Source: Candidatus Pacearchaeota archaeon
GTDB lineage: Archaea; Nanobdellota; Nanobdellia; Pacearchaeales; GW2011-AR1
Direction: 5' to 3'
Assembly (NCBI GenBank): GCA_027021195.1
Contig: JALUUW010000003.1
Location: forward strand, 4,843 to 68,842
Length of the DNA: 64,000 nt
In this document: in pieces, positions 1 to 51,624 of the stretch
How positions within the stretch are numbered: the stretch's first letter is position 1
How the letters are laid out: every line of letters starts with the position of its first letter
The notes under the pieces: model-generated
The model's database searches: none
Told to the model about the DNA's origin: nothing
The model's input: the letters and a program-made list of their open reading frames with translations, nothing else
Program-made: the position numbers and the translations under genes

Positions 1-587
1 CTGAAACTATTGAACCTGGGAAGATAGAAATCGCTATCTTTAATGATTTGAAAGAGTTTACAAAAAAATATGAATTTGAAAATAATAAATCTCTTCCTTT
101 TTTTGTTGTAGGATTTGCTGGAAAGAACGGCAGAATTTTTATCTTGGATAAAAAACTTTTTCCAAAACAAGGACACAGAGAAGAAGAATTTGAAAGAGTC
201 GTTGTTCATGAATTATGCCATGTATTTATCAGGAGAATGCTACACCCCAAACATACTTTCATTTGGATAGAGGAAGGGCTATGTGAATTTTTGTCTTTTG
301 GAGATTATCCTTTAAAAATAAAAAAAATAGTGGATTTTAGAGAGATTGAAACTTCTGAAGGATGGAGAAAGCATAATGCCTATCAACAAGCAAAAGGTTT
401 TTTTAAATATTTATCTAAAAATTATGGGGATAAAAAAATAGTGGAATTTATTAAAAAAATTAAAGTTACTTCTGAGAGAAAGGCATTTAAAGAGGTGTTT
501 GGAAAAGAAATAAATGAAATCCAAGAAAAGTTCTTTAACACCTTGAAAAATGAAAAAACTCTATCATCCGGGAATTCCTTGCAATGA
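1..587 (+). CDS. HExxH metallopeptidase-like protein (5' partial)
   Basis: The frame is open from nt 3 to the window edge, and the track start at 48 is a TTG. Motifs VVHELCHVF and downstream IEEGLCE fit a gluzincin-like HExxH+E. Overlaps the next gene by 38 nt. Confidence 0.5.
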   Translation, partial: ETIEPGKIEIAIFNDLKEFTKKYEFENNKSLPFFVVGFAGKNGRIFILDKKLFPKQGHREEEFERVVVHELCHVFIRRMLHPKHTFIWIEEGLCEFLSFGDYPLKIKKIVDFREIETSEGWRKHNAYQQAKGFFKYLSKNYGDKKIVEFIKKIKVTSERKAFKEVFGKEINEIQEKFFNTLKNEKTLSSGNSLQ

Positions 588-1716
588 GAATATAGTTCAA
601 AAAGATTTAGAAAAGAGTCTTATTAATTTTAGAAATAAGCGTATAGAGATTGTTGAATGTAATGAAGGGTTTGGAGTTTTTGATAAAGACTGGTTTTGGG
701 CAACAAAAGAAGAGTTAGATTCTCTTAAGAAATGCCCAGATATCTCAATAAGGTATTTTTTAGATAATGAAAAGTTCAATCATGAAGGATGGTTTTTTTA
801 TAACCCAATAGAACTTGGTATAGAATTAACAAGAGAATGTAATCAGCTGTGTATTCATTGTTGGAATGAATCTTCTTCAAGGGATACTAAAATGCCTTTG
901 AAGAAGGCAAAAGAAATTATTCAGGAATTTAGAAAAGGAGGAGGACAGAAAATAAAGATATCTGGTGGAGAACCATTATCATATTCTTCTTTAGATGAAT
1001 TTTTATTTTTTTCAAAAGAAGTTGGGATAAAAAAAGTAGATATGACATCTAATGGAGTGTTAATGAATAGGGAAAAAGCAAAATTTTTATCTACTCATCT
1101 AACAAATATATGTATAAGTATTCATGGTTCTAAATCAGATATACATGACGATATAACTTACAATAAAGGAAGTTTTGTAAAATCTATTAAAGCAATAGAG
1201 CATCTTCAGGAAGAAGGGTTAAACCCCATAATTAATTATACTGTTATGCAGAAAAACAAAAAGGACATTGCAGACATGATTGAATTAGGGAAAATTCTTA
1301 ATGTTAACGGGATAAAATTCAGTTGTTTAAAAAAGATTGGAAGAGCGAGAAATTTAGAGGTAATTTCTAAAGAAGAGGTAAATACATTAAGAAATTTAAT
1401 ATATACTAAATCGAAAGAGCTTGGAATTGAGTTAGAGAAGAGTGAATTGTATCCTGCAGGATATGTTCAAGGCATTAGTCAATCAAAATTTTATGGATGT
1501 AATGGATTAAGAACCCAACTATATATCTCTTCAGAAGGCAACGTTTACCCATGTAGTTTAATAAATGAAAGTATTGGAAACATTTACCAAGATTCTTTAT
1601 TTAATTTATGGAGAAGTAAAAAAGCTCAGGAATTTAGAAGATTGGATAATTGTATTAAAAATGATTGCAAAATAATTAGGGATTGTGGGAGAAAGTGTAG
1701 GGCAAGTTTGAAGTAA
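550..1716 (+). CDS. radical SAM / SPASM-domain enzyme (peptide-maturase-like)
   Basis: CNQLCIHC (CX3CX2C), SGGEPL, and a C-terminal Cys cluster: GCNG..YISSEGNVYPCS..CIKNDCKIIRDCGRKC. There is a ~95-aa N-terminal extension before the cluster motif. Confidence 0.85.
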   Translation: MKKLYHPGIPCNENIVQKDLEKSLINFRNKRIEIVECNEGFGVFDKDWFWATKEELDSLKKCPDISIRYFLDNEKFNHEGWFFYNPIELGIELTRECNQLCIHCWNESSSRDTKMPLKKAKEIIQEFRKGGGQKIKISGGEPLSYSSLDEFLFFSKEVGIKKVDMTSNGVLMNREKAKFLSTHLTNICISIHGSKSDIHDDITYNKGSFVKSIKAIEHLQEEGLNPIINYTVMQKNKKDIADMIELGKILNVNGIKFSCLKKIGRARNLEVISKEEVNTLRNLIYTKSKELGIELEKSELYPAGYVQGISQSKFYGCNGLRTQLYISSEGNVYPCSLINESIGNIYQDSLFNLWRSKKAQEFRRLDNCIKNDCKIIRDCGRKCRASLK

Positions 1717-1793
1717 CGAGGGAGAGTTAAATATAAAATATATTTTGACCATGGAAGAAAAATAGGGTATGGGAAGCTAAAAAAAGAGCAGAT

Positions 1794-2372
1794 ATGGAAG
1801 GTTATGAGAATATAAAATTTGTTAAAGCTGATATCAATTCCTTACCCTTTGACTCAGAAACGTTTGACGTTGTCATAGTAGGAAATGTCTTCTCTTTGAT
1901 AGAAAATAAAAAAATTGCATTAAAGGAATGCATGCGTGTTTCTAAAAAAAATGGATTTATTATTGTAATCCCTATGTATTACATAAAAGAACCTTCGAAG
2001 GAACTTATAAAGAGAGTTTCCAAAGCCCTTAAAGTCGACATTGCTCCTATGTATCGATCAGATTGGATAAATTTCTTCTCAATATCTGGATTAGAAATAT
2101 ATTGGTCAAAAGATTTCAAATTTGACCACATAGACAATAAAAAAATAATTTCCTTTTGTGAGGAGATTTTTAATAAAGAACATTTACGAAACTTGACTAA
2201 ATCGGCATATGAGAAACTATTTGAAGTTTATCAGAAATTTATGTTTCTATTTCGCGATAATTTATCTCATATGGGATATATCATACTTATTTTATCTAAA
2301 AGAAAGTTGTGGGAAGATCCAGAACTCTTTACATCCAGAGAAAATATCTCCCTTGGAAACTTTAGTCAATAG
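1794..2372 (+). CDS. class I SAM-methyltransferase, N-terminally truncated (motif I missing); possible pseudogene
   Basis: Starts at the post-motif-I region (KFVKADINSLPFDSETFDVVIVGNVF, KNGFIIV). No GxGxG motif is present. An in-frame TAA lies 5 codons upstream, and only 77 nt separate it from the previous gene. Confidence 0.5.
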   Translation: MEGYENIKFVKADINSLPFDSETFDVVIVGNVFSLIENKKIALKECMRVSKKNGFIIVIPMYYIKEPSKELIKRVSKALKVDIAPMYRSDWINFFSISGLEIYWSKDFKFDHIDNKKIISFCEEIFNKEHLRNLTKSAYEKLFEVYQKFMFLFRDNLSHMGYIILILSKRKLWEDPELFTSRENISLGNFSQ

Positions 2373-2390
2373 AATAAAATATGGTAATTC

Positions 2391-3416
2391 TTATTTGATT
2401 CCTTTTTCTAAGAACTCAAAATTGTTTGTTTCTGAGTCAATTACAACTTTTGTACCAATAGGGATAGTTAGCTGAGGATCGGTATGACCTATATCCACTC
2501 CAAACAAAATGGGAAAATTATATTCTTTTGTTCTCTCCAGTAACTTCTTTTTTAGCATTTCTATATCTTCTTCATTATATCTAAAAGGTCTGCCAAAAAT
2601 TAGCCCTCTGATTTGTTTAAATACTCCTAAAATGTTTAACTGCTCCAGATACCAGTCAACATAAGGAAGGGGTTCCCCTTCATCAAATGTCTGACCTTCT
2701 GGCAATTCTAAAAATAGAATCTTATCTGTATGATCTGGCCAGTATTTTGTACCTGGCAAATGGACTATTGATGTGAGACATCCTCCTATAATTTTACCTT
2801 CTGCTTTTCCTCCTCGCAACCATTCAAAACCTTTATTTTCTTTCAATTTTCTTGGCCTTGTAAGATCCAACTTTTTACTCCAATCTAAGAATTCATCAGT
2901 CCAGCTTTCAGAAGGAGATACTTTTCCTATGGGTTCATCTGATGCTACTGCCTTATTAAAATAATCTAAAGTATATTTAAGAGGATGAGGGTATTCTCCA
3001 AATTGAGTTATAATACATGGTCCATAAAAAGTTATAAGATTGGATTGCGTATGGAGTGCATAGTGCAAGATAGAGATATCTGAATAACCACAGAATATCT
3101 TTGGATTTTGTTTTATTTTCTCAAAATCTAAATAATTTAGAGTATGGGTTGCTACTGTTCCTCCAATTAAAGATATAATTGCTTTTATATCTTTGTCAAG
3201 AAAAGCGTCCATTATGTCTTTAGCCCTTTCTTCTGCAGGAGCAGATTCCCATCCGTTAACTTTTCTTGCTGTAGGAAACTCTTTAATTTTATAACCCTCA
3301 GATTTTAGAAATTTAACCGCATTGTCAAGTCTATGGGGAAAGTTCAATCCAGACGATGGAGCGATTATTGCTATTGTATCTCCTTTTCCAAGTCGTGGAG
3401 GCTTAATTAGTTCCAT
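2391..3416 (-). CDS. S66 family LD-carboxypeptidase / MccF-like serine peptidase
   Basis: GDTIAIIAPSSG, GYSDISIL (nucleophile Ser context) and DIGHTDP (His). Size is 341 aa. Confidence 0.8.
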   Translation of the reverse strand: MELIKPPRLGKGDTIAIIAPSSGLNFPHRLDNAVKFLKSEGYKIKEFPTARKVNGWESAPAEERAKDIMDAFLDKDIKAIISLIGGTVATHTLNYLDFEKIKQNPKIFCGYSDISILHYALHTQSNLITFYGPCIITQFGEYPHPLKYTLDYFNKAVASDEPIGKVSPSESWTDEFLDWSKKLDLTRPRKLKENKGFEWLRGGKAEGKIIGGCLTSIVHLPGTKYWPDHTDKILFLELPEGQTFDEGEPLPYVDWYLEQLNILGVFKQIRGLIFGRPFRYNEEDIEMLKKKLLERTKEYNFPILFGVDIGHTDPQLTIPIGTKVVIDSETNNFEFLEKGIK

Positions 3417-3623
3417 TAATTTTTAACAGAGGTAAAACTTTAAATATTTATTGGATTCCCTCTAACAACCCCTTCATTCAAAATAAAAGAAAAAGCCATT
3501 ACAGATATGACTATGATGCTAATTTGAATTAAGGACAAGCAAACCTTCGGCCCTTTTTTTGGGATGGGTTAATGAAAACAATGGCATTTATTCTTGTTTA
3601 TGGGTATTTACTAAGAATAATGG

Positions 3624-3839
3624 CTAAGGAAAACAGCCTAATTTTTCATGTGCTTTTATTAAAAAATCCCTGAAATCTTTTTTGCTTTCCCATACAGGAT
3701 TTAACTTGTTCCTGATTAAATCAAAATCTATCTTCTTTAATCTTCTAATCTCTGCTAATTCACTTATCATTCTTTCGTACTTTTCTTTTGATATTTTTGC
3801 CATTTCCATAATAGCTAAATGGGGCTGATATTTATACAA
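3624..3839 (-). CDS. hypothetical small protein (71 aa; TTG start, alternative ATG at 3809)
   Basis: Last ORF of the minus-strand rSAM operon, 23 nt after the HExxH gene. No recognisable motif. Confidence 0.4.
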   Translation of the reverse strand: MYKYQPHLAIMEMAKISKEKYERMISELAEIRRLKKIDFDLIRNKLNPVWESKKDFRDFLIKAHEKLGCFP

Positions 3840-3862
3840 TTTTCTAAATAAAACAGGGAATC

Positions 3863-4531
3863 TTATATCTTAATTCTTTTAACATATTCTATACATTCAT
3901 TAATTAGAGGAATTATATCTGGATTATGCTTCCACGTTTCCATTACTCTCTTTCTTAATTCTTTATGTTCAGCATAGCCTTTATCTTCAACAAACCATAG
4001 ATCTCTACACTCTAAATTTAAGATTGCAGTTAAAGACTCATTAACATACTCTATTTCTCTAAACCCTAGCTGATTTCTAATTAAAGGCAAATGTGTTTTT
4101 TCCATCTGTAAATGCATTAATTCATGTCCACATGTTCTTAAATTTTGCAACAGAGGTCTTCGAATTGAGACCATGAAAGAATCCTCCTCCACATTATAAG
4201 GACATCTTCCAGCAGTTGTAATATATGCATTAAATTCATTTGAATATATTTTGTGTTTGGTAATTTTTTCTAACCTTTCAAAAAACCTGTTATTTATTTT
4301 TCCCCAAGAGTTCTGCAATGTTTCTAAAAAGATGTCTAAATGGCCTGAAGAATATAATGGTTGAATATACTGTTCAATCTCTTCCCTACATTCTTCAAAT
4401 TTTCTATTTTTCCACCTCTGTAGGACTGACCCTCTTTCTAATTCATTCTCCCATGGATGCTCGTAGTTGCTAGTTTCCCATATATTCCAAAGGTCTTTTT
4501 CCTTATCAAACTTAAAAATTACTTTTGACAT
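3863..4531 (-). CDS. HExxH-motif protein (putative Zn peptidase)
   Basis: CGHELMHLQ motif. Lies 16 nt downstream of the methyltransferase gene. Confidence 0.5.
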   Translation of the reverse strand: MSKVIFKFDKEKDLWNIWETSNYEHPWENELERGSVLQRWKNRKFEECREEIEQYIQPLYSSGHLDIFLETLQNSWGKINNRFFERLEKITKHKIYSNEFNAYITTAGRCPYNVEEDSFMVSIRRPLLQNLRTCGHELMHLQMEKTHLPLIRNQLGFREIEYVNESLTAILNLECRDLWFVEDKGYAEHKELRKRVMETWKHNPDIIPLINECIEYVKRIKI

Positions 4532-4547
4532 ATTCTTTTTTTGAAGG

Positions 4548-5072
4548 TTAAGCTTTTTGTTTATTTTTTAATAGTAATAAAATAACATTATGTTTATGGG
4601 GGGGCAAATTATCATGCTCTTCAATGGGGGTCTCATACATTCCTTCCTTCATTATTTCCCAATCAGAATATAGGTTTTTTAATTGTTTTAATGAAGGATA
4701 AAACCTATTTTGTGCATTTCTTGCCATAGGGTCTTTATCTGAAAAACAGATGATAAAAGTATGTCCTTGCTCAGAGGTATGTGTTTGTATCTTTTTTAAA
4801 ATATTTTGTGCAGTTACCTTATCTAAAAAATGCAAAACTAACGAAGCAATTATTAAGTCATATTTCTCTTTGAATTCAAAATTTGTTATATCTTCATTAA
4901 AGAATTTAAAATTTTTCTGGGAGATTTCCATAGGTCTTTTATCTACTCCAAGAACTTTTACGCCTTGTTTGGCAAATCTGAGAGATTTATGCCCTTTCCC
5001 ACAACCCAGATCCAAAACATTTTGAGGCTGTAGTTCTTTAAGATATTCTTTGACTTTATCCCTTATTATCAT
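4548..5072 (-). CDS. class I SAM-dependent methyltransferase
   Basis: VLDLGCGKGHKSLRFAKQGVKVLGVD (motif I plus acidic loop) and DLIIASLVLHFL. Confidence 0.8.
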   Translation of the reverse strand: MIIRDKVKEYLKELQPQNVLDLGCGKGHKSLRFAKQGVKVLGVDKRPMEISQKNFKFFNEDITNFEFKEKYDLIIASLVLHFLDKVTAQNILKKIQTHTSEQGHTFIICFSDKDPMARNAQNRFYPSLKQLKNLYSDWEIMKEGMYETPIEEHDNLPPHKHNVILLLLKNKQKA

Positions 5073-5108
5073 TTATTAATTCTTTAAGTTTATTTTATTT
5101 AATTCTTT

Positions 5109-6170
5109 CTAATCTTGTGAGCTTCCCTGCACATATTCTTTAAAACACATAGGGTCTTTGGCCATATAATCTCCTGTTACTGCATAAGCAATTGCCCTAC
5201 ATCCTCTGCAGTGCACCACTTTATCACAAAGAGTATTCTCCCTCATTTTATTCAAATCTCTTAAATTTTGCATTACCTTGTTCTCTAAAATTAAATTACC
5301 TATTCCGTCACTTATGCGACCTATTTTAATAGGAAGTCTTCTACAAGGATAAACAGTTCCGTCCGATAATATTGAAAGCATTCTAAATCCTGCAGAACAC
5401 CCCCAAAGATATTTATTTTGCTCCTTTGCTGTTTTTATTACTTCGTTTTCTTTTTCCAATATTTGCCAAAGAACATCAGATTGAAGGACATTAATCTTAT
5501 CTCTATATTTTTCATTTAGTCTTTCAGTTTCTTTAACCATCTCGTAGATTTCTTTAGCATTAATAAATTCAGGATCTTTAATTCCTAAGTTTGAATCTGG
5601 ATTATAAGTTTTAAAACCCACTTTTTTAGCTCCTGCTAAAATTGCATTTTGGATAACATCCTCAAACTCTTTTTTATTAGACTGCATAAGAGTCATGGCT
5701 ACTGTAACATTTAAGCCTTCTTTTGAAGCATTTCTTATCCCTTCAATTGCCATATCATATGCAAAATCTTTTCTCCTAATTTTATTATGTGTGCGCTTAG
5801 ATCCATCAAGAGAAACTTGTATTGCTTCAACTTTTTGCTCCAAAAGTTCTCTAGCTTTTTTAGGAGTAATTAATGTGCCATTAGTTAACAAATTTGTTAT
5901 AACTTTTTTCTTACAAGCATATTCTAAAATTTCAAGATGATCTTCCCTCATTAAAGGATCTCCTCCCGAAATTGCGATTCTGGGTATCATCTCCCACCTT
6001 TTTGCTGTCTCTGCTAAATCATCTATCATTGATTTTACTTCATTTAAACTCATTAAATTATCATCTTGGATGTGGTCTACATTCCCTTCGTTGTTATGAT
6101 AACAATGGGAGCATTTAAGATTACAATCATTTGTGGAATCCCCTTGAATATATAAGTGTCTTTTAGCCAT
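5109..6170 (-). CDS. radical SAM / SPASM-domain enzyme (peptide-maturase-like)
   Basis: CNLKCSHC (CX3CX2C) at residues ~16-23, SGGDPL, and a C-terminal WGCSAG..LSDGTVYPCRR..CDKVVHCRGCRA..DPMC (SPASM-type auxiliary cluster cysteines). Confidence 0.85.
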   Translation of the reverse strand: MAKRHLYIQGDSTNDCNLKCSHCYHNNEGNVDHIQDDNLMSLNEVKSMIDDLAETAKRWEMIPRIAISGGDPLMREDHLEILEYACKKKVITNLLTNGTLITPKKARELLEQKVEAIQVSLDGSKRTHNKIRRKDFAYDMAIEGIRNASKEGLNVTVAMTLMQSNKKEFEDVIQNAILAGAKKVGFKTYNPDSNLGIKDPEFINAKEIYEMVKETERLNEKYRDKINVLQSDVLWQILEKENEVIKTAKEQNKYLWGCSAGFRMLSILSDGTVYPCRRLPIKIGRISDGIGNLILENKVMQNLRDLNKMRENTLCDKVVHCRGCRAIAYAVTGDYMAKDPMCFKEYVQGSSQD

Positions 6171-6212
6171 TACAAATTAAGAGCAGTTTTTCTAAATCTA
6201 TTTGGAATTTTT

Positions 6213-6338
6213 TTATTCTAAAGAATAGACATCATCTGCGTAACATGCATCTGGACCACAAGCATCGCAAGGGTCACAGTGATAACGATCTTTCTCTTGA
6301 GACGCTTTATTAGTTATATAAGAACTAATATCTAACAT
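6213..6338 (-). CDS. 41-aa Cys/Asp-rich peptide, candidate RiPP precursor (not in ORF track)
   Basis: Hand translation gives MLDISSYITNKASQEKDRYHCDPCDACGPDACYADDVYSLE*. It has an ATG start and a TAA stop, lies 42 nt upstream of the rSAM gene on the same strand, and has a TATA-like box ~80 nt upstream. Confidence 0.5.
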   Translation of the reverse strand: MLDISSYITNKASQEKDRYHCDPCDACGPDACYADDVYSLE

Positions 6339-6416
6339 ACCCTTAAGAAAAGCTTGTTCCTCAGCAGTTCTCTCCAGTTTATTTGTTTTTGCTATAAAAA
6401 GCCAACAACCTTAATA

Positions 6417-6424
6417 TATTTAAA
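6417..6424 (-). promoter_or_regulatory. TATA-box-like element (TTTAAATA on minus strand) upstream of the peptide/rSAM operon
   Basis: The plus strand reads tatttaaa, which matches the archaeal TATA consensus TTTAWATA. It sits 79 nt upstream of the peptide ATG. Confidence 0.35.
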
Positions 6425-6583
6425 TTTTATTGTAATGGATTTATTTTGTAGTGCCTAAGTAACTTAAAAAGTTATTTATTTGCAGATTTTTCAGAAGAAA
6501 CAACCTCAAACTCAGTTGAGCCTATATAATTTCCATCTACATTAAACACTGTTTTGCAAATCCCTAATTGTAATGATTTGTCA

Positions 6584-6615
6584 AAACAAAATCCTCTTCA
6601 TTTACATTTCTTGAA
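6584..6615. repeat. 32-nt exact copy of a segment of the 1247-aa gene (partner 11601..11632)
   Basis: aaacaaaatcctcttcatttacatttcttgaa is identical at both sites in the same orientation. The flanks are unrelated. Confidence 0.9.
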
Positions 6616-6644
6616 AACAAATTGTTTCATTTAATCCATATACC

Positions 6645-6661
6645 CCGCAGCTCTGCTGCGG
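6645..6661 (-). terminator. GC-rich hairpin (CCGCAGC-tct-GCTGCGG), terminator-like
   Basis: A 7-bp perfect GC-rich stem in AT-rich intergenic DNA, downstream of the 6802..7386 gene. On the minus strand it is followed by a T-rich tract (ttgtttt). Confidence 0.3.
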
Positions 6662-6801
6662 TTGGGAGCTTCACTTCAGAACGAGATGGGGCAGAAGTCA
6701 TGACTCCAGAATTAGCGGATGTGTCTTAACAGGAAGTCTTTCTCCTCTGGAAGAATACGTTCTTCTCTCAAAAACCCTTCCCTATCAGCTATTCTAAGGG
6801 T

Positions 6802-7386
6802 TCACTCAGATGTTCTGCTGATTTCATTCAGATATTCTGCTAATTGCCTCATATCATCAGGCTTCCCCTCTAATTCAGAATAATATTTATTGTCCATTTC
6901 AAAGTAAAACCTATTCACGAAATCAATAGTCTCTTTGTATTTGCTTATGCCTTTTTTCTCAACTAATTTATTAAAGCAGTCAATATATCTCATTAGGGCT
7001 TCAGTCAACTCCCTTGTTTCCTCGCTCTCCTTAAGCAGGGCTTTATCCATATTAGAATATGCTTTATCCAAAAATTCAATTACTTCTTTATAATTCTCAA
7101 CCCCTTTTTTTTCCACCAATTTGTAAAAAGCACACGCATATTCTGTTAAAGCCATAGTCAGGTCCCTGATTTCCGGGTCTTTGATTCTATGTATCTCTTT
7201 CTGGAATCTATCCATATCATCAAGTTCTTTTTCTATTGTCTCTTGGAAAGTTTGGTTTTTTATTTTTGACCGAAAAATGATTCCGTGTTCCACTAGACCT
7301 TTATGGAATCCTCTTAATCCTTTCAATATCTTTTCATTTAATTTAATTTTTTCTGCTTCTATCATTTTAATCTTACATAGTTCCAC
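6802..7386 (-). CDS. hypothetical protein with internal ~45-aa repeats (GTG start; alternative ATG at 7365)
   Basis: Two clear repeats: RDLTMALTEYACAFYKLVEKKGVENYKEVIEFLDKAY and RELTEALMRYIDCFNKLVEKKGISKYKETIDFVNRFY. Confidence 0.5.
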   Translation of the reverse strand: MELCKIKMIEAEKIKLNEKILKGLRGFHKGLVEHGIIFRSKIKNQTFQETIEKELDDMDRFQKEIHRIKDPEIRDLTMALTEYACAFYKLVEKKGVENYKEVIEFLDKAYSNMDKALLKESEETRELTEALMRYIDCFNKLVEKKGISKYKETIDFVNRFYFEMDNKYYSELEGKPDDMRQLAEYLNEISRTSE

Positions 7387-7438
7387 CTACCCTTATGCAT
7401 TAATAAAAAAGACAAAAAAAGAAATTATCTTTCAGGTC

Positions 7439-7564
7439 TTATTTCTTTTCAGATCCTTCAGTCATTTCTAAAACCTTCTCATTTGGCATAGAGGTTTCTA
7501 CAAGACCCAAATGGAAATTCTCAAGACCTTCCAACATTTCCCTGTTAAATCCACATAGGGGCAT
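7439..7564 (-). CDS. 41-aa small ORF with strong SD (not in ORF track)
   Basis: GGAGGAAAAGAAA precedes the ATG. Translation is MPLCGFNREMLEGLENFHLGLVETSMPNEKVLEMTEGSEKK*. Lies upstream of and co-directional with the 194-aa gene. Confidence 0.35.
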   Translation of the reverse strand: MPLCGFNREMLEGLENFHLGLVETSMPNEKVLEMTEGSEKK

Positions 7565-7672
7565 TTTCTTTTCCTCCTAATTTAGTTAACTATAATATAT
7601 AATTACTTTATATAAACTATTCTATTGGATAATTTTACAAAAAAGAAATATTTATATATTGGTACTTATTTT

Positions 7673-50224: not shown

Positions 50225-50324
50225 AGGAGACAAAAAATCAATCTTAAAGTGCCTGAGGGATTTTGGGCTGAAGCTTGAGGATATTGAAAAAAGGCCCTAT
50301 CAGGAGATAATCAAAAATGCATAA
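50160..50324 (+). pseudogene. start-less 54-codon frame resembling the C-terminus of a CYTH-domain protein
   Basis: DALNHAVSIDILPNKDVYLEIEGDKKSILKCLRDFGLKLEDIEKRPYQEIIKNA*. The hydrophobic-x-LEIEG...GL....SY.E pattern is typical of CYTH tails. There is no start codon, and the frame overlaps both neighbouring genes. Confidence 0.3.
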
Positions 50325-51624
50325 AAACATAATAAGAATAAAAAAGGAAAAGAGCAATTACCTGATTTTCAGCTCTGAAGGAATGCTCCTCTCCCTGACT
50401 CGGGAGGAATTTGAGGCTTTTGAAAAACACGGAAAAAAGAAAAAAATCAATCCTGAATATAAGGAAATACTTTCAAGGCTTGCATCTTATGGCATTCTGG
50501 AATTTGAGGATTTTAAGCCAGATGATGAAAGAAAGACTTATGACCTGTCTCTTTTAAGGCACAACTCTTCTGAGCCTCTTTATCCTGCTCCTGTTCTTGC
50601 TCATTTGTCTGTAACCAATAAATGCAATATGTCCTGCGAGTATTGCTCTGTCAGGGAACTGCACTGCTCTAATGCTGAAAAAGAACTGACAACAGAGCAA
50701 TGGAAAAAAATAATTTCCGGGCTTGCAGAATGGGGTGTTTTTCAGATAGGGTTCACAGGAGGAGAGCCGACACTGAGAAAGGATTTGCCTGAGCTTGCAA
50801 ACCATGTTCATGAAAAAGGATGCGTATTTAACCTGACAACAAACGGCTGGCTTTTAGATGAAAAGCTTGTTAGCAAGCTTGCAGAATCAGGAATGAAGCA
50901 GTGCCAGGTTTCCTTAGACTCCCACATTAAAGAGACTCATGAAAAGCTGAGGGGAAAAGGCTCTTATGAGAGAGCCATAAAATCCATAAGGCTGTTAAAG
51001 GACAAGGGAGTTGCTGTTGGAATAGACTGCGTTGTTTCTAGAAATAATATCGGCTCAATTCCTGAATTTATAAAGTGGATTGAAAAAGAAGGGATTCCTT
51101 ATCTGACTTTAATAAAGCTGAAAAAAGGGGATTTAAGCAGAGAGTATTATAATTACCTAATGCCTGATTACCATGCATATTCTAGATTGATAAAAGATAT
51201 ATGCTGCAGGGAAAAAAACAAAAACCCCAATATAACTCTTGACTGCGGAAGCGTTTCAAACCTTCAGGCAGTTGCTGATAAAAATAAATTTCATAATCTT
51301 CCTGTTGCAGGATGCCCTTTAGGCCATCATTTAATATGCATCTCTCCTTCTGGAAATATTTTCAGCTGCGCTGCCCTTCTTGATAAAAGGCTTTGTCTTG
51401 GAAATGCCTTAAAAGATGATATTAAGGAAGTCTGGGAAAACAATTCTCTTTTAAGGGAATTTAGATTAATAAAACAAAAAATCTCAGGAAAGTGCAGGAA
51501 TTGCGAAAGGCTTGACATATGCAGGGGAGGGTGCAGGGGAATTTCTTATTCAATAAACAATGGGTTGTTTGGCTCTGACTCAACATGTAAATTTCAGGAG
51601 GTGAAAAATGGAAATACGGGTTGA
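50317..51624 (+). CDS. radical SAM / SPASM-domain enzyme (peptide-maturase-like), third copy
   Basis: CNMSCEYC (CX3CX2C), TGGEPTL and a C-terminal GCPLG..ISPSGNIFSCA..CRNCERLDICRGGCRG..DSTC. The N-terminal ~100 aa look like a substrate-recognition extension. Confidence 0.85.
   Translation: MHKNIIRIKKEKSNYLIFSSEGMLLSLTREEFEAFEKHGKKKKINPEYKEILSRLASYGILEFEDFKPDDERKTYDLSLLRHNSSEPLYPAPVLAHLSVTNKCNMSCEYCSVRELHCSNAEKELTTEQWKKIISGLAEWGVFQIGFTGGEPTLRKDLPELANHVHEKGCVFNLTTNGWLLDEKLVSKLAESGMKQCQVSLDSHIKETHEKLRGKGSYERAIKSIRLLKDKGVAVGIDCVVSRNNIGSIPEFIKWIEKEGIPYLTLIKLKKGDLSREYYNYLMPDYHAYSRLIKDICCREKNKNPNITLDCGSVSNLQAVADKNKFHNLPVAGCPLGHHLICISPSGNIFSCAALLDKRLCLGNALKDDIKEVWENNSLLREFRLIKQKISGKCRNCERLDICRGGCRGISYSINNGLFGSDSTCKFQEVKNGNTG

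What the first reader, a model, noticed from the sequence alone, without database searches (positions are those of the whole stretch)
2391..3416. S66 LD-carboxypeptidase/MccF-like peptidase in an organism that should lack murein
Seen in sequence: the Ser and His contexts are clear (GYSDISIL, GHTDP).

Established knowledge: S66 enzymes are either LdcA, which recycles murein tetrapeptide, or MccF, which gives self-immunity by cleaving microcin C-type peptidyl or aminoacyl adenylates. Archaea have no murein substrate.

Inference: because the gene sits where two rSAM modules converge, a role in processing or immunity for the locus product is more attractive than cell-wall recycling. Scavenging of host (bacterial) muropeptides is an alternative.
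Basis: partly seen in the sequence, partly recalled or inferred. Interest (0 to 1): 0.5.

Follow-up and report, generated by a model that had tools for sequence, protein, structure and literature searches.

The report
Orphan MccF-type hydrolase in an archaeon
The gene is a real, intact MccF-type S66 hydrolase, but its conserved partner in related archaea is a small gene cassette resembling the core of the bacterial agrocin 84 antibiotic pathway, not the neighbouring radical-SAM genes; here that cassette has been lost except for a truncated methyltransferase.

Summary
ORF 2391-3416 (-) encodes a 341-aa two-domain S66 peptidase with a Ser112/Glu237/His311 triad.

By sequence, predicted fold and tree it belongs to the MccF clade, not LdcA. 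It has the MccF-specific loop and the adenine-stacking Trp (W179, equivalent to EcMccF W186).

S66 is common in DPANN archaea. In 15 of 19 informative lineages it sits beside a cassette of three genes:
- an AsnRS/AsnA-like adenylating enzyme;
- a UbiE-type methyltransferase;
- a ProRS-like protein, sometimes with an extra ProRS or LysRS-like gene.

A SPASM radical-SAM gene lies nearby in only 3 of 19.

The cassette genes are homologues of AgnA, AgnB1, AgnC0/C1 and AgnC5 of the agrocin 84 plasmid pAgK84. Similar clusters occur in Xenorhabdus, Peribacillus, Streptomyces and Microcystis, next to LeuRS, AlaRS or MetRS-like genes.

In this window only S66 and an N-terminally truncated AgnB1-like methyltransferase (1773-2372) remain. 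A radical-SAM module sits where the rest of the cassette would be.

Best reading: an orphan self-protection or detoxifying hydrolase for aminoacyl-nucleotide-type tRNA-synthetase inhibitors. The link to the radical-SAM loci is not supported, and murein recycling is unlikely.

The parts
2391..3416 (-). S66 serine hydrolase of the MccF clade (341 aa). Catalytic Ser112 (GYSD), Glu237 and His311 (GHTDP). MccF-type loop with Trp179. No N-terminal signal-like sequence, so presumably cytoplasmic.
   Evidence: ORF. Pfam S66 N- and C-domains. PDB phmmer: BA3275 2e-62, E. coli MccF 8e-45, LdcA 1e-12 to 2e-5. Alignment. AF2 model pLDDT 95.7. Foldseek TM 0.93 to BA3275, 0.90-0.91 to MccF, 0.72-0.77 to LdcA.
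1773..2372 (+). N-terminally truncated remnant of the AgnB1-type (UbiE-like) methyltransferase that is the conserved convergent neighbour of S66 in relatives. The ORF runs 1794-2372 (192 aa) and homology starts at 1773. Residues 1-82 of the full-length 273-282 aa protein are missing, including SAM-binding motif I (ILEIGTSTGFT). It is probably inactive.
   Evidence: The Pfam Methyltransf_11 match starts at profile position 44 of 95. phmmer to the cassette methyltransferase gives 1e-76. tblastn aligns residues 83-272 of the full-length protein to window 1773-2342 at 61.6% identity. The alignment shows the missing N-terminus.
1717..1772 (.). Junction between the end of rSAM/SPASM gene 550-1716 and the start of methyltransferase homology. 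This is the inferred breakpoint where the AsnRS-like and ProRS-like part of the cassette was lost or displaced.
   Evidence: The closest relatives (79% identical S66) keep a full-length methyltransferase, a 382-aa protein and the AsnRS-like gene at this position. The breakpoint itself is an inference.
3438..3452 (-). AT-rich TATA-box-like element (AATAAATATTTAAAG) about 29 nt upstream of the S66 ATG, inside a 207-bp gap. It suggests S66 has its own promoter. A hairpin followed by a T-run at 3638-3622 ends the upstream small ORF.
   Evidence: Sequence and the terminator-like site. This is inference only. The sigma-70 scan is not applicable to archaea and was at background (11 found, 10.5 expected).

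Best explanation
The gene encodes a cytoplasmic MccF-type S66 serine hydrolase. Its ancestral genomic partner is a compact cassette found in many DPANN archaea. The cassette holds an AsnRS/AsnA-like adenylate-forming enzyme (AgnA-like), a UbiE-type methyltransferase (AgnB1-like) and a ProRS-like protein (AgnC1 type), often with an additional full-length ProRS or a LysRS-like gene. It is homologous to the core of the agrocin 84 (agn) cluster and to similar bacterial clusters that sit next to LeuRS, AlaRS or MetRS-like genes. By analogy with MccF, the enzyme most likely binds the nucleotide moiety through the loop Trp179. It would then cleave the acyl/aminoacyl carboxamide bond of an aminoacyl-adenylate-mimicking tRNA-synthetase inhibitor, protecting the cell from its own or its neighbours' product. 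In this genome the biosynthetic part of the cassette has been lost. Only a truncated methyltransferase remains and a radical-SAM module occupies the site, so S66 is retained as an orphan detoxification or immunity gene with its own promoter. It is not functionally coupled to the rSAM modules. Shown here: family membership, MccF-type architecture, the conserved cassette, its homology to agn genes, and the decay of the cassette in the window. Inferred: the substrate, and the immunity rather than biosynthetic role.
For: 1. MccF clade. PDB phmmer favours BA3275 and MccF by many orders of magnitude over LdcA. The NCBIfam LdcA equivalog scores 96.7 bits against a cutoff of 378. Foldseek TM is 0.93 and 0.91 against MccF-type structures and 0.72-0.77 against LdcA; the top hit includes the BA3275 structure with AMP bound. 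In the NJ tree the DPANN clade has 98% support, joins BA3275 at 99% and AgnC5 at 75%, with LdcA outside.
2. The MccF-specific loop that LdcA lacks is present. W179 aligns with EcMccF W186, which stacks on adenine (PMC8323819, Fig. 7 legend), and is invariant in 29 homologues.
3. Conserved partner. 15 of 19 informative archaeal S66 lineages have the AsnRS-like, methyltransferase and ProRS-like cassette within 8 kb, mostly convergent. In the reverse look-up from the methyltransferase, 4 of 4 loci contain S66, including the four-gene operon L056 and the operon L057.
4. Homology to agn. AgnB1 matches the DPANN methyltransferase at 3e-72, AgnA matches the AsnRS-like gene at 6e-25, and AgnC5 matches S66 at 7e-69. 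L057 has homologues of AgnC0 (4.6e-8) and AgnC1 (3.3e-24). The plasmid is identified as pAgK84.
5. Bacterial clusters with the same core plus LeuRS, AlaRS or MetRS-like genes and MFS pumps. The DPANN ProRS-like protein matches the Xenorhabdus 'aaRS-related' protein at 2.6e-67.
6. The AsnRS-like protein keeps class II motifs 2 and 3.
7. MccF cleaves the carboxamide bond of intact and processed McC, and stand-alone homologues confer resistance (PMC9239234, PMC8323819).
8. S66 outlives the cassette. It is intact beside remnants in the window and in a CPR bacterium (L010), and stands alone in L006, L016 and L024.
9. mccF is likewise convergent with mccB-E.
Against: No biochemical data exist for any archaeal member, for AgnC5 or for BA3275's natural substrate. 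The agrocin 84 pathway itself is unresolved. The review names only AgnB2 and AgnG as immunity genes and does not assign AgnC5 (PMC8323819, section 18). In several bacterial clusters and in L056/L057, S66 sits inside the operon and is translationally coupled to biosynthetic genes, which fits a biosynthetic step equally well. EcMccF residues N220, R246 and K247 are not conserved (T215, G247 and E248 in the window), so the acyl specificity is unknown. N220 and K247 are named in an active-site mutant PDB title; their role in aspartate recognition is recalled from memory, not verified here. The cassette is so widespread in DPANN that a housekeeping metabolite rather than an antibiotic cannot be excluded. 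One bacterial cluster (Exiguobacterium) lacks S66. Only about 67 kb of this genome was examined, so the cassette might exist elsewhere in it.
Confidence: 0.55

Rival explanations
1. S66 is a biosynthetic (tailoring or maturation) hydrolase of the agn-like pathway. For example, it might remove an amino acid from an aminoacyl-nucleotide intermediate or release a phosphoramidate nucleotide for re-acylation. In this window it would be a relic without its pathway.
For: S66 is nearly a core gene of the cassette: 15 of 19 loci from the S66 side and 4 of 4 from the methyltransferase side. It is often inside the operon with overlapping stop and start codons, as in L056, L057, Streptomyces L049 and pAgK84. 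In pAgK84 it lies in the agnC block of presumed biosynthetic genes, and the review lists only AgnB2 and AgnG as immunity genes (PMC8323819).
Against: The gene stays intact, with every family-invariant residue, where the cassette is decayed or absent: the window, L010, L006, L016 and L024. That is unexpected for a step with no pathway. It is dispensable in the Exiguobacterium cluster. All characterised close relatives (EcMccF, BaMccF) are resistance enzymes.
Confidence: 0.25
2. One reading: S66 processes, or gives immunity to, the product of the flanking radical-SAM/SPASM (RiPP-like) modules.
For: S66 lies at the convergence point of the two modules and is co-directional with module B. A homologous rSAM/SPASM plus TehB-type methyltransferase pair lies 3 kb from S66 in L021/L022. 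L024 has a TehB-like methyltransferase and a small ORF directly upstream of S66.
Against: Only 3 of 19 lineages have any SPASM-type rSAM within 8 kb, and the closest relatives (79% identical S66) have none. The 'module A' methyltransferase is really the truncated cassette gene. A 207-bp gap with a TATA-like element and a terminator-like hairpin separates S66 from module B. rSAM/SPASM genes are frequent in this genome: four in about 70 kb, including 50317-51624, so adjacency is cheap. No known S66 enzyme acts on RiPPs other than the peptidyl-nucleotide McC.
Confidence: 0.06
3. An LdcA-like L,D-carboxypeptidase that recycles or scavenges murein, pseudomurein or host muropeptides.
For: Some sources annotate homologues as 'muramoyltetrapeptide carboxypeptidase'. 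DPANN organisms depend on hosts and could import peptides. From memory, and not tested here, some DPANN genomes encode murein-related enzymes.
Against: The LdcA equivalog model is far below its cutoff (96.7 against 378 bits). The MccF-specific nucleotide-binding loop and Trp are present where LdcA has a deletion. The structural match is better to MccF than to LdcA. No Mur or cell-wall genes appear in any of about 25 neighbourhoods, where the conserved neighbours are tRNA-synthetase-like enzymes. [quoted passage not shown]
Confidence: 0.05

Closest known systems
AgnC5, the S66 peptidase of the agrocin 84 cluster on pAgK84 (Rhizobium rhizogenes K84)
   Same: It is the best plasmid-borne homologue of the window protein (37.4% identity over 99% of the length; phmmer 1.4e-61). 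It has the same MccF-type loop and Trp. It is embedded with homologues of the same partners that flank the archaeal S66: AgnA, AgnB1, AgnC0/C1 and an extra tRNA synthetase.
   Different: The function of AgnC5 is itself unknown. The agn cluster has 17 genes, including sugar-phosphate and deoxy-nucleoside tailoring genes and a LeuRS. The archaeal cassettes have 4-6 genes with ProRS or LysRS-like partners. The window has lost everything except S66 and a methyltransferase stub.
MccF of E. coli (microcin C7 self-immunity) and BaMccF of Bacillus anthracis
   Same: Same fold (TM 0.90-0.91), catalytic Ser/Glu/His triad, loop insertion and adenine-stacking Trp. The gene is convergent with the biosynthetic operon, as in mcc.
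   Different: About 29-31% identity. EcMccF residues N220, R246 and K247 are replaced by T215, G247 and E248. There is an extra insertion after the catalytic Glu. No MccA or MccB (ThiF-type) genes lie nearby.
BA3275 of Bacillus anthracis (PDB 5f9m, 5f5x; 'member of MccF family', crystallised with AMP)
   Same: It is the closest solved structure (2e-62, 35% identity, TM 0.93) and sister to the DPANN/CPR clade in the tree (99% bootstrap). It shares the insertion after the catalytic Glu.
   Different: A bacterial stand-alone gene. No physiological substrate was found in the literature held here.
LdcA (murein tetrapeptide L,D-carboxypeptidase; E. coli, P. aeruginosa PA5198)
   Same: Same S66 family and the same catalytic triad.
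   Different: Only about 21% identity (E 1e-12 to 2e-5; TM 0.72-0.77). It lacks the roughly 30-residue MccF loop. The window protein fails the NCBIfam LdcA equivalog cutoff.

Membership tests
Peptidase family S66 (Pfam PF02016 + PF17676) | Both the N-terminal and the C-terminal S66 domains score above their gathering thresholds | tested here: met
   122.6 bits (cutoff 25) and 101.9 bits (cutoff 23.7).
Peptidase family S66 (Pfam PF02016 + PF17676) | Ser-Glu-His catalytic triad | tested here: met
   S112, E237 and H311 align with EcMccF S118, E243 and H311 and with E. coli LdcA. They are conserved in 29 homologues.
MccF clade of S66 | Closer in sequence and fold to MccF-type proteins than to LdcA | tested here: met
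MccF clade of S66 | Loop insertion over the active site carrying the adenine-stacking Trp (EcMccF W186, BaMccF W180) | tested here: met
   The loop is present and W179 aligns with W186. The role of the Trp is taken from PMC8323819 (Fig. 7 legend) and from the PDB titles of the W186F and W180A mutants. This rests on alignment only; the geometry in the model was not inspected.
MccF clade of S66 | Conservation of EcMccF residues N220 and K247 (named in the title of active-site mutant 3tly; their role in aspartate recognition is recalled from memory, not verified here) | tested here: not met
   T215 and E248 in the window, with G247 at the position of R246. A different acyl specificity is therefore expected.
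MccF clade of S66 | Hydrolysis of aminoacyl- or peptidyl-nucleotides and resistance to them | not testable with these tools
   This needs enzymology or a resistance assay.
mcc (microcin C) gene cluster | Neighbouring MccB (ThiF-type adenylyltransferase) and MccA precursor | tested here: not met
   None of the ten neighbouring proteins matches ThiF. Only the immediate neighbourhood was scanned.
LdcA (muramoyltetrapeptide carboxypeptidase) | Score above the NCBIfam equivalog cutoff (NF008424) | tested here: not met
   96.7 bits against a cutoff of 378.
LdcA (muramoyltetrapeptide carboxypeptidase) | Compact active site without the MccF loop, and a genomic link to murein metabolism | tested here: not met
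   The loop is present. No cell-wall genes occur in about 25 neighbourhoods.
agn-like (agrocin 84-type) cassette | AgnC5-type S66 gene | tested here: met
   phmmer 1.4e-61 to AgnC5. AgnC5 groups with the DPANN/BA3275 clade at 75% bootstrap.
agn-like (agrocin 84-type) cassette | AgnB1-type methyltransferase adjacent to S66 | tested here: inconclusive
   It is present only as an N-terminally truncated fragment lacking SAM motif I (window 1773-2372). It is full length in relatives.
agn-like (agrocin 84-type) cassette | AgnA-type (AsnRS/AsnA-like) and AgnC1/ProRS-like genes adjacent to S66 | tested here: not met
   Both are absent from the window and from the 3 kb beyond its left end. They are present in 15 of 19 related lineages. 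The window is therefore a remnant, not a complete member.
agn-like (agrocin 84-type) cassette | Production of a nucleotide antibiotic that inhibits a tRNA synthetase | not testable with these tools
   No product is known for any archaeal cassette.
rSAM/SPASM RiPP cluster accessory gene | Conserved co-occurrence of S66 with the rSAM/SPASM maturase across relatives | tested here: not met
   3 of 19 lineages.

The most novel reading that the evidence does not exclude
DPANN archaea (and some CPR bacteria) widely carry a minimal agrocin-84-type pathway. An AsnRS-like and a ProRS-like adenylating enzyme plus a methyltransferase would build an aminoacyl-adenylate-mimicking inhibitor of ProRS, LysRS or another synthetase, used against hosts or competitors. 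A bacterial-type extra synthetase would provide target-replacement immunity and the S66 enzyme would be the hydrolytic self-protection factor. The window would then show an orphan immunity gene kept after loss of production. These would be the first archaeal members of a compound class currently represented by a single characterised molecule.
Probability: 0.35. Interest if true: 0.8.

Novelty: new member of a known kind. Interest (0 to 1): 0.55.

Why it matters
On its own, the window gene is one more MccF-family hydrolase. What matters is what its relatives reveal. S66 is a near-constant member of a compact gene cassette found in both archaea and bacteria. [quoted passage not shown]

The four-gene archaeal operons (for example L056) are a much simpler system than the 17-gene agn cluster. 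They could be used to work out how the N-acyl phosphoramidate warhead is made and what AgnC5 does.

If the products are tRNA-synthetase inhibitors, they would give DPANN symbionts a previously unrecognised chemical weapon or host-control tool. They would also point to new synthetase-targeting scaffolds. The window itself illustrates that the hydrolase can persist after the cassette decays, as orphan immunity genes would.

Tried and rejected
- Direct profile comparison of the DPANN ProRS-like, unk387 and unk403 families with AgnC1 was not significant (hhalign probability below 5%). The link was made only later, through the L057 404-aa protein, which hits AgnC1 at 3e-24 and the ProRS-like family at 1e-5. 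unk387 and unk403 remain unassigned.
- A relaxed-selection test on the methyltransferase remnant was inconclusive. The divergence ratio of methyltransferase to S66 was 1.39-1.68 for window pairs and 0.99-1.69 for other pairs.
- The sigma-70 promoter scan was uninformative (11 sites found, 10.5 expected) and does not apply to archaea.
- Literature searches for MccF or LD-carboxypeptidase in archaea/DPANN, for agrocin with DPANN, and for agrocin 84 with Xenorhabdus found nothing relevant.
- Kim et al. 2006 (PNAS, pAgK84 sequence) and Tikhonov et al. 2010 (JBC, MccF mechanism) are not held. The original authors' view of AgnC5 could not be checked.
- The idea that the cassette is merely a cluster of housekeeping tRNA synthetases was considered and rejected. 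The AsnRS-like gene lacks the anticodon-binding domain. The ProRS-like and LysRS-like genes fall below their equivalog cutoffs. The same set recurs on bacterial plasmids together with exporters.
- Only the immediate neighbours of S66 and ten large ORFs were family-scanned, not every ORF of the 64 kb. phmmer with all cassette proteins found no AgnA-like or ProRS-like gene anywhere in the window.
Full report
**Observation.** The ORF at 2391-3416 (minus strand, 341 aa, ATG start) is real and contains the quoted GYSDISIL and GHTDP motifs. Pfam matches both S66 domains over their full lengths, at 1.3e-35 and 4.5e-29. Alignment with E. coli MccF and LdcA places the catalytic triad at Ser112, Glu237 and His311. 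These positions are conserved in 29 archaeal homologues. The window is archaeal: it has an archaeal-type topoisomerase I (666 bits, cutoff 458) and two CDC48 genes. The closest S66 relatives come from Micrarchaeota, Woesearchaeota and Pacearchaeota MAGs.

**Which kind of S66.**
- Against all PDB sequences the best matches are B. anthracis BA3275 (2e-62), BA5613 (1e-54) and E. coli MccF (8e-45). LdcA-type proteins score 5e-28 to 2e-5.
- The NCBIfam LdcA equivalog scores 96.7 bits against a cutoff of 378.
- An AlphaFold model (pLDDT 95.7) superposes on BA3275 with TM 0.93 and on MccF proteins with TM 0.90-0.91. It superposes on LdcA with only TM 0.72-0.77.
- In an NJ tree with 200 bootstraps the DPANN sequences form one clade (98%). 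They join two CPR-like sequences (88%), then BA3275 (99%), then AgnC5 (75%). E. coli LdcA and three LdcA-like bacterial sequences fall outside.
- The roughly 30-residue loop that MccF has and LdcA lacks is present. Trp179 aligns with EcMccF Trp186, which stacks on the adenine of processed microcin C (PMC8323819, Fig. 7 legend).
- EcMccF residues N220, R246 and K247 are not conserved, so a different acyl group is expected.

**Anatomy in the window.**
- S66 ends 18 bp from the stop codon of a convergent 192-aa 'methyltransferase' (1794-2372).
- Upstream of S66 on the same strand lies a 207-bp gap. It contains a TATA-like element about 29 nt before the ATG, and a hairpin with a T-run follows the preceding small ORF.
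- Beyond the gap come a small ORF, an HExxH protein, a TehB-type methyltransferase and an rSAM/SPASM gene.
- On the other side are an rSAM/SPASM gene and a BSP-type metallopeptidase. Beyond the window edge lie a further small ORF and a third rSAM gene.
- A fourth rSAM/SPASM gene sits at 50317-51624, so such genes are frequent in this genome.
- The first 8 kb has 29-33% GC, against 35-43% elsewhere.

**Comparative context, the key result.** I collected S66 loci in three ways: by exact-protein look-up, from GTDB genomes and from metagenomes. I then searched their ORFs with the window's module proteins and with neighbours found in relatives.
- The archaeal loci fall into 26 distinct S66 lineages, of which 19 have at least 3 kb of sequence downstream.
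- Of those 19, 15 carry a conserved cassette within 8 kb. It is usually convergent with S66. It holds a 376-379 aa AsnRS/AsnA-like protein without an anticodon-binding domain, directly followed by a 273-282 aa UbiE-type methyltransferase.
- The third component varies. It is a 375-393 aa ProRS-like paralogue, or a 387-aa or 403-aa protein of unknown family. Some cassettes add a bacterial-type ProRS (402-425 aa) or a LysRS-like protein with an RlmN-like rSAM.
- Only 3 of 19 lineages (window, L021, L024) have a SPASM-type rSAM gene within 8 kb.
- The closest relatives of the window protein (79% identity) have the cassette and no rSAM.
- The window's 192-aa methyltransferase is the homologue of the cassette methyltransferase (1e-76). 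It begins at residue 83 of the full-length protein and lacks SAM motif I. No AsnRS-like or ProRS-like gene is present in the window or in the 3 kb to its left.
- A CPR (Colwellbacteria) locus likewise has an intact S66 between fragments of the AsnRS-like and 387-aa genes.
- I also searched in the opposite direction, starting from methyltransferase homologues. All four loci examined contain S66. Two are fully co-directional archaeal operons: L056 (AsnRS-like, methyltransferase, ProRS-like, S66) and L057.

**Link to agrocin 84.** The best plasmid hits of the window S66 (37.4% identity over 99% of its length) are 44,420-bp Agrobacterium plasmids. They are identified as pAgK84 by accessions NC_006277 and CP000632 and by the annotation 'agnA: Agrocin84-synthetase'. 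On that plasmid the S66 gene (AgnC5 by gene order) lies in a cluster with the following genes:
- an AsnA-like gene (AgnA);
- a methyltransferase (AgnB1);
- LeuRS (AgnB2);
- two hypothetical proteins (AgnC0 and AgnC1);
- SAM-dependent enzymes.

The homology to the archaeal cassette is direct:
- AgnB1 matches the DPANN methyltransferase at 3e-72.
- AgnA matches the AsnRS-like protein at 6e-25.
- AgnC5 matches S66 at 7e-69.
- The archaeal operon L057 also contains homologues of AgnC0 (4.6e-8) and AgnC1 (3.3e-24).

The same core recurs in bacteria:
- On the Xenorhabdus bovienii CS03 megaplasmid the gene order is AsnA-like, methyltransferase, S66, other genes, LeuRS, an 'aaRS-related' gene and an MFS pump.
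- A Peribacillus plasmid carries it with AlaRS.
- Streptomyces sp. NBC_01707 carries it.
- Microcystis aeruginosa carries it with a MetRS-like gene.
- A 3.4-Mb bacterial genome carries it with LeuRS, a MetRS-like gene, a TyrRS/TrpRS-like gene and two S66 genes.

The Xenorhabdus 'aaRS-related' protein matches the DPANN ProRS-like protein at 2.6e-67. One related cluster, in Exiguobacterium, lacks S66. The AsnRS-like protein keeps class II motifs 2 and 3.

The 2021 review states several points (PMC8323819, sections 18-19):
- The agn pathway is unknown.
- AgnA was proposed to form the phosphoramide bond.
- AgnC1 is remotely ProRS-like.
- Immunity is provided by the AgnB2 LeuRS and the AgnG pump.
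- agn-like clusters were known only from Ensifer and some Actinobacteria.

**Mechanism.** The following points are shown:
- The enzyme is an MccF-type hydrolase with a nucleotide-binding loop.
- It is genomically tied, across two domains of life, to adenylate-forming tRNA-synthetase-like enzymes, a methyltransferase and extra tRNA-synthetase genes.
- MccF enzymes cleave the carboxamide bond between the aminoacyl or peptidyl part and the phosphoramidate nucleotide, and they confer resistance, including as stand-alone genes (PMC9239234, PMC8323819).

The following points are inferred:
- The archaeal cassette makes an aminoacyl-adenylate mimic.
- S66 hydrolyses that mimic to protect the cell.
- The window gene is an orphan of that system, kept because detoxification is useful without production.

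Persistence of an intact S66 where the cassette has decayed favours protection over a purely biosynthetic role. On the other hand, S66 is almost always present in the cassette and often sits inside its operon, which keeps the biosynthetic alternative alive.

**Rivals.** Coupling to the rSAM modules is disfavoured by the comparative data, by the identity of the methyltransferase fragment and by the likely separate promoter. Murein or muropeptide recycling is disfavoured by the LdcA model score, by the loop, and by the absence of any cell-wall genes in the neighbourhoods.

**Novelty and limits.** The gene itself is a new, archaeal member of the MccF clade. The conserved DPANN cassette homologous to the agn core was not found in any paper in the library available here. 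That library does not include most subscription journals. No substrate was tested. Only about 67 kb of this genome was seen. The tree is a distance tree. The promoter call is by eye.

Noticed in passing
window 48-1716 and 3624-6170; L001 11701-15002: Three rSAM/SPASM genes lie within about 10 kb. Each is paired with an HExxH-type metallopeptidase-like protein (BSP-like 48-587; 222 aa with HELMH at 3863-4531), a methyltransferase and small ORFs of 59-71 aa. They look like RiPP-type modules. A homologous rSAM plus TehB-type methyltransferase pair occurs in L021/L022.
   Followed up: partly
window 50317-51624: A fourth rSAM/SPASM gene (435 aa; mycofactocin/PqqE/WgkB-like scores, all below cutoffs), far from the S66 locus.
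   Followed up: no
window 1-8000 compared with 8001-64000: A compositional step: 29-33% GC in the first 8 kb against 35-43% elsewhere. This fits the S66/rSAM region being a variable or acquired island.
   Followed up: no
window 8690-10177 and 11026-14769: Two large Cys-rich proteins (495 and 1247 aa) share similar Cys-rich N-terminal regions. The longer one has hydrophobic segments. They have no family match in relatives' annotations (L001) and sit in the highest-GC stretch of the window.
   Followed up: no
L047 (Xenorhabdus bovienii CS03 megaplasmid NZ_FO818638.1, record 12025-20675): An apparently undescribed agrocin-84-like cluster: AsnA-like, methyltransferase, S66, nucleoside phosphorylase, VOC, GloA, LeuRS, aaRS-related protein and MFS pump. 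It lies next to a XyeA/XyeB RiPP locus and recombinases.
   Followed up: partly
L059 (3.4-Mb bacterial genome, locus 7803-19673): A cassette with AgnA-like, S66, methyltransferase, LeuRS, ProRS-like and MetRS-like genes, a second S66 and a TyrRS/TrpRS-like gene. That is several tRNA-synthetase genes in one cluster, flanked by toxin-antitoxin and IS66 elements.
   Followed up: no
L058 (Microcystis aeruginosa, 3905-7408): A minimal trio of methyltransferase, MetRS-like gene (513 aa) and S66 without an AgnA-like gene, next to a YcaO-domain gene and transposases.
   Followed up: no
L010 1570-3236 (CPR Colwellbacteria MAG): An intact S66 (46% identity to the window protein) is flanked by a 102-residue N-terminal fragment of the AsnRS-like gene and an 87-residue C-terminal fragment of the 387-aa cassette gene. 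This is a second case of cassette decay with S66 retained.
   Followed up: partly
L051 6850-7662: In one strain with an S66 protein identical to L052/L053, the cassette methyltransferase is called as 201 aa, although tblastn aligns it over the full 271 residues. This could be a premature stop or an assembly error.
   Followed up: no
L023 8091-10489; L020 9717-10982: The cassette-linked ProRS is of the bacterial type without the INS domain (TIGR00409 473 bits against 150 bits for the archaeal-type model). The cassette-linked LysRS-like protein scores only 280 bits (cutoff 468) and is 31% identical to the window's housekeeping LysRS (23875-25359, 559 bits). Both look like divergent second copies, as expected for resistance or biosynthetic paralogues.
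   Followed up: partly
window 55104-57398 and 57805-59988: Two tandem CDC48-family AAA ATPase genes, separated by a 127-aa ORF.
   Followed up: no
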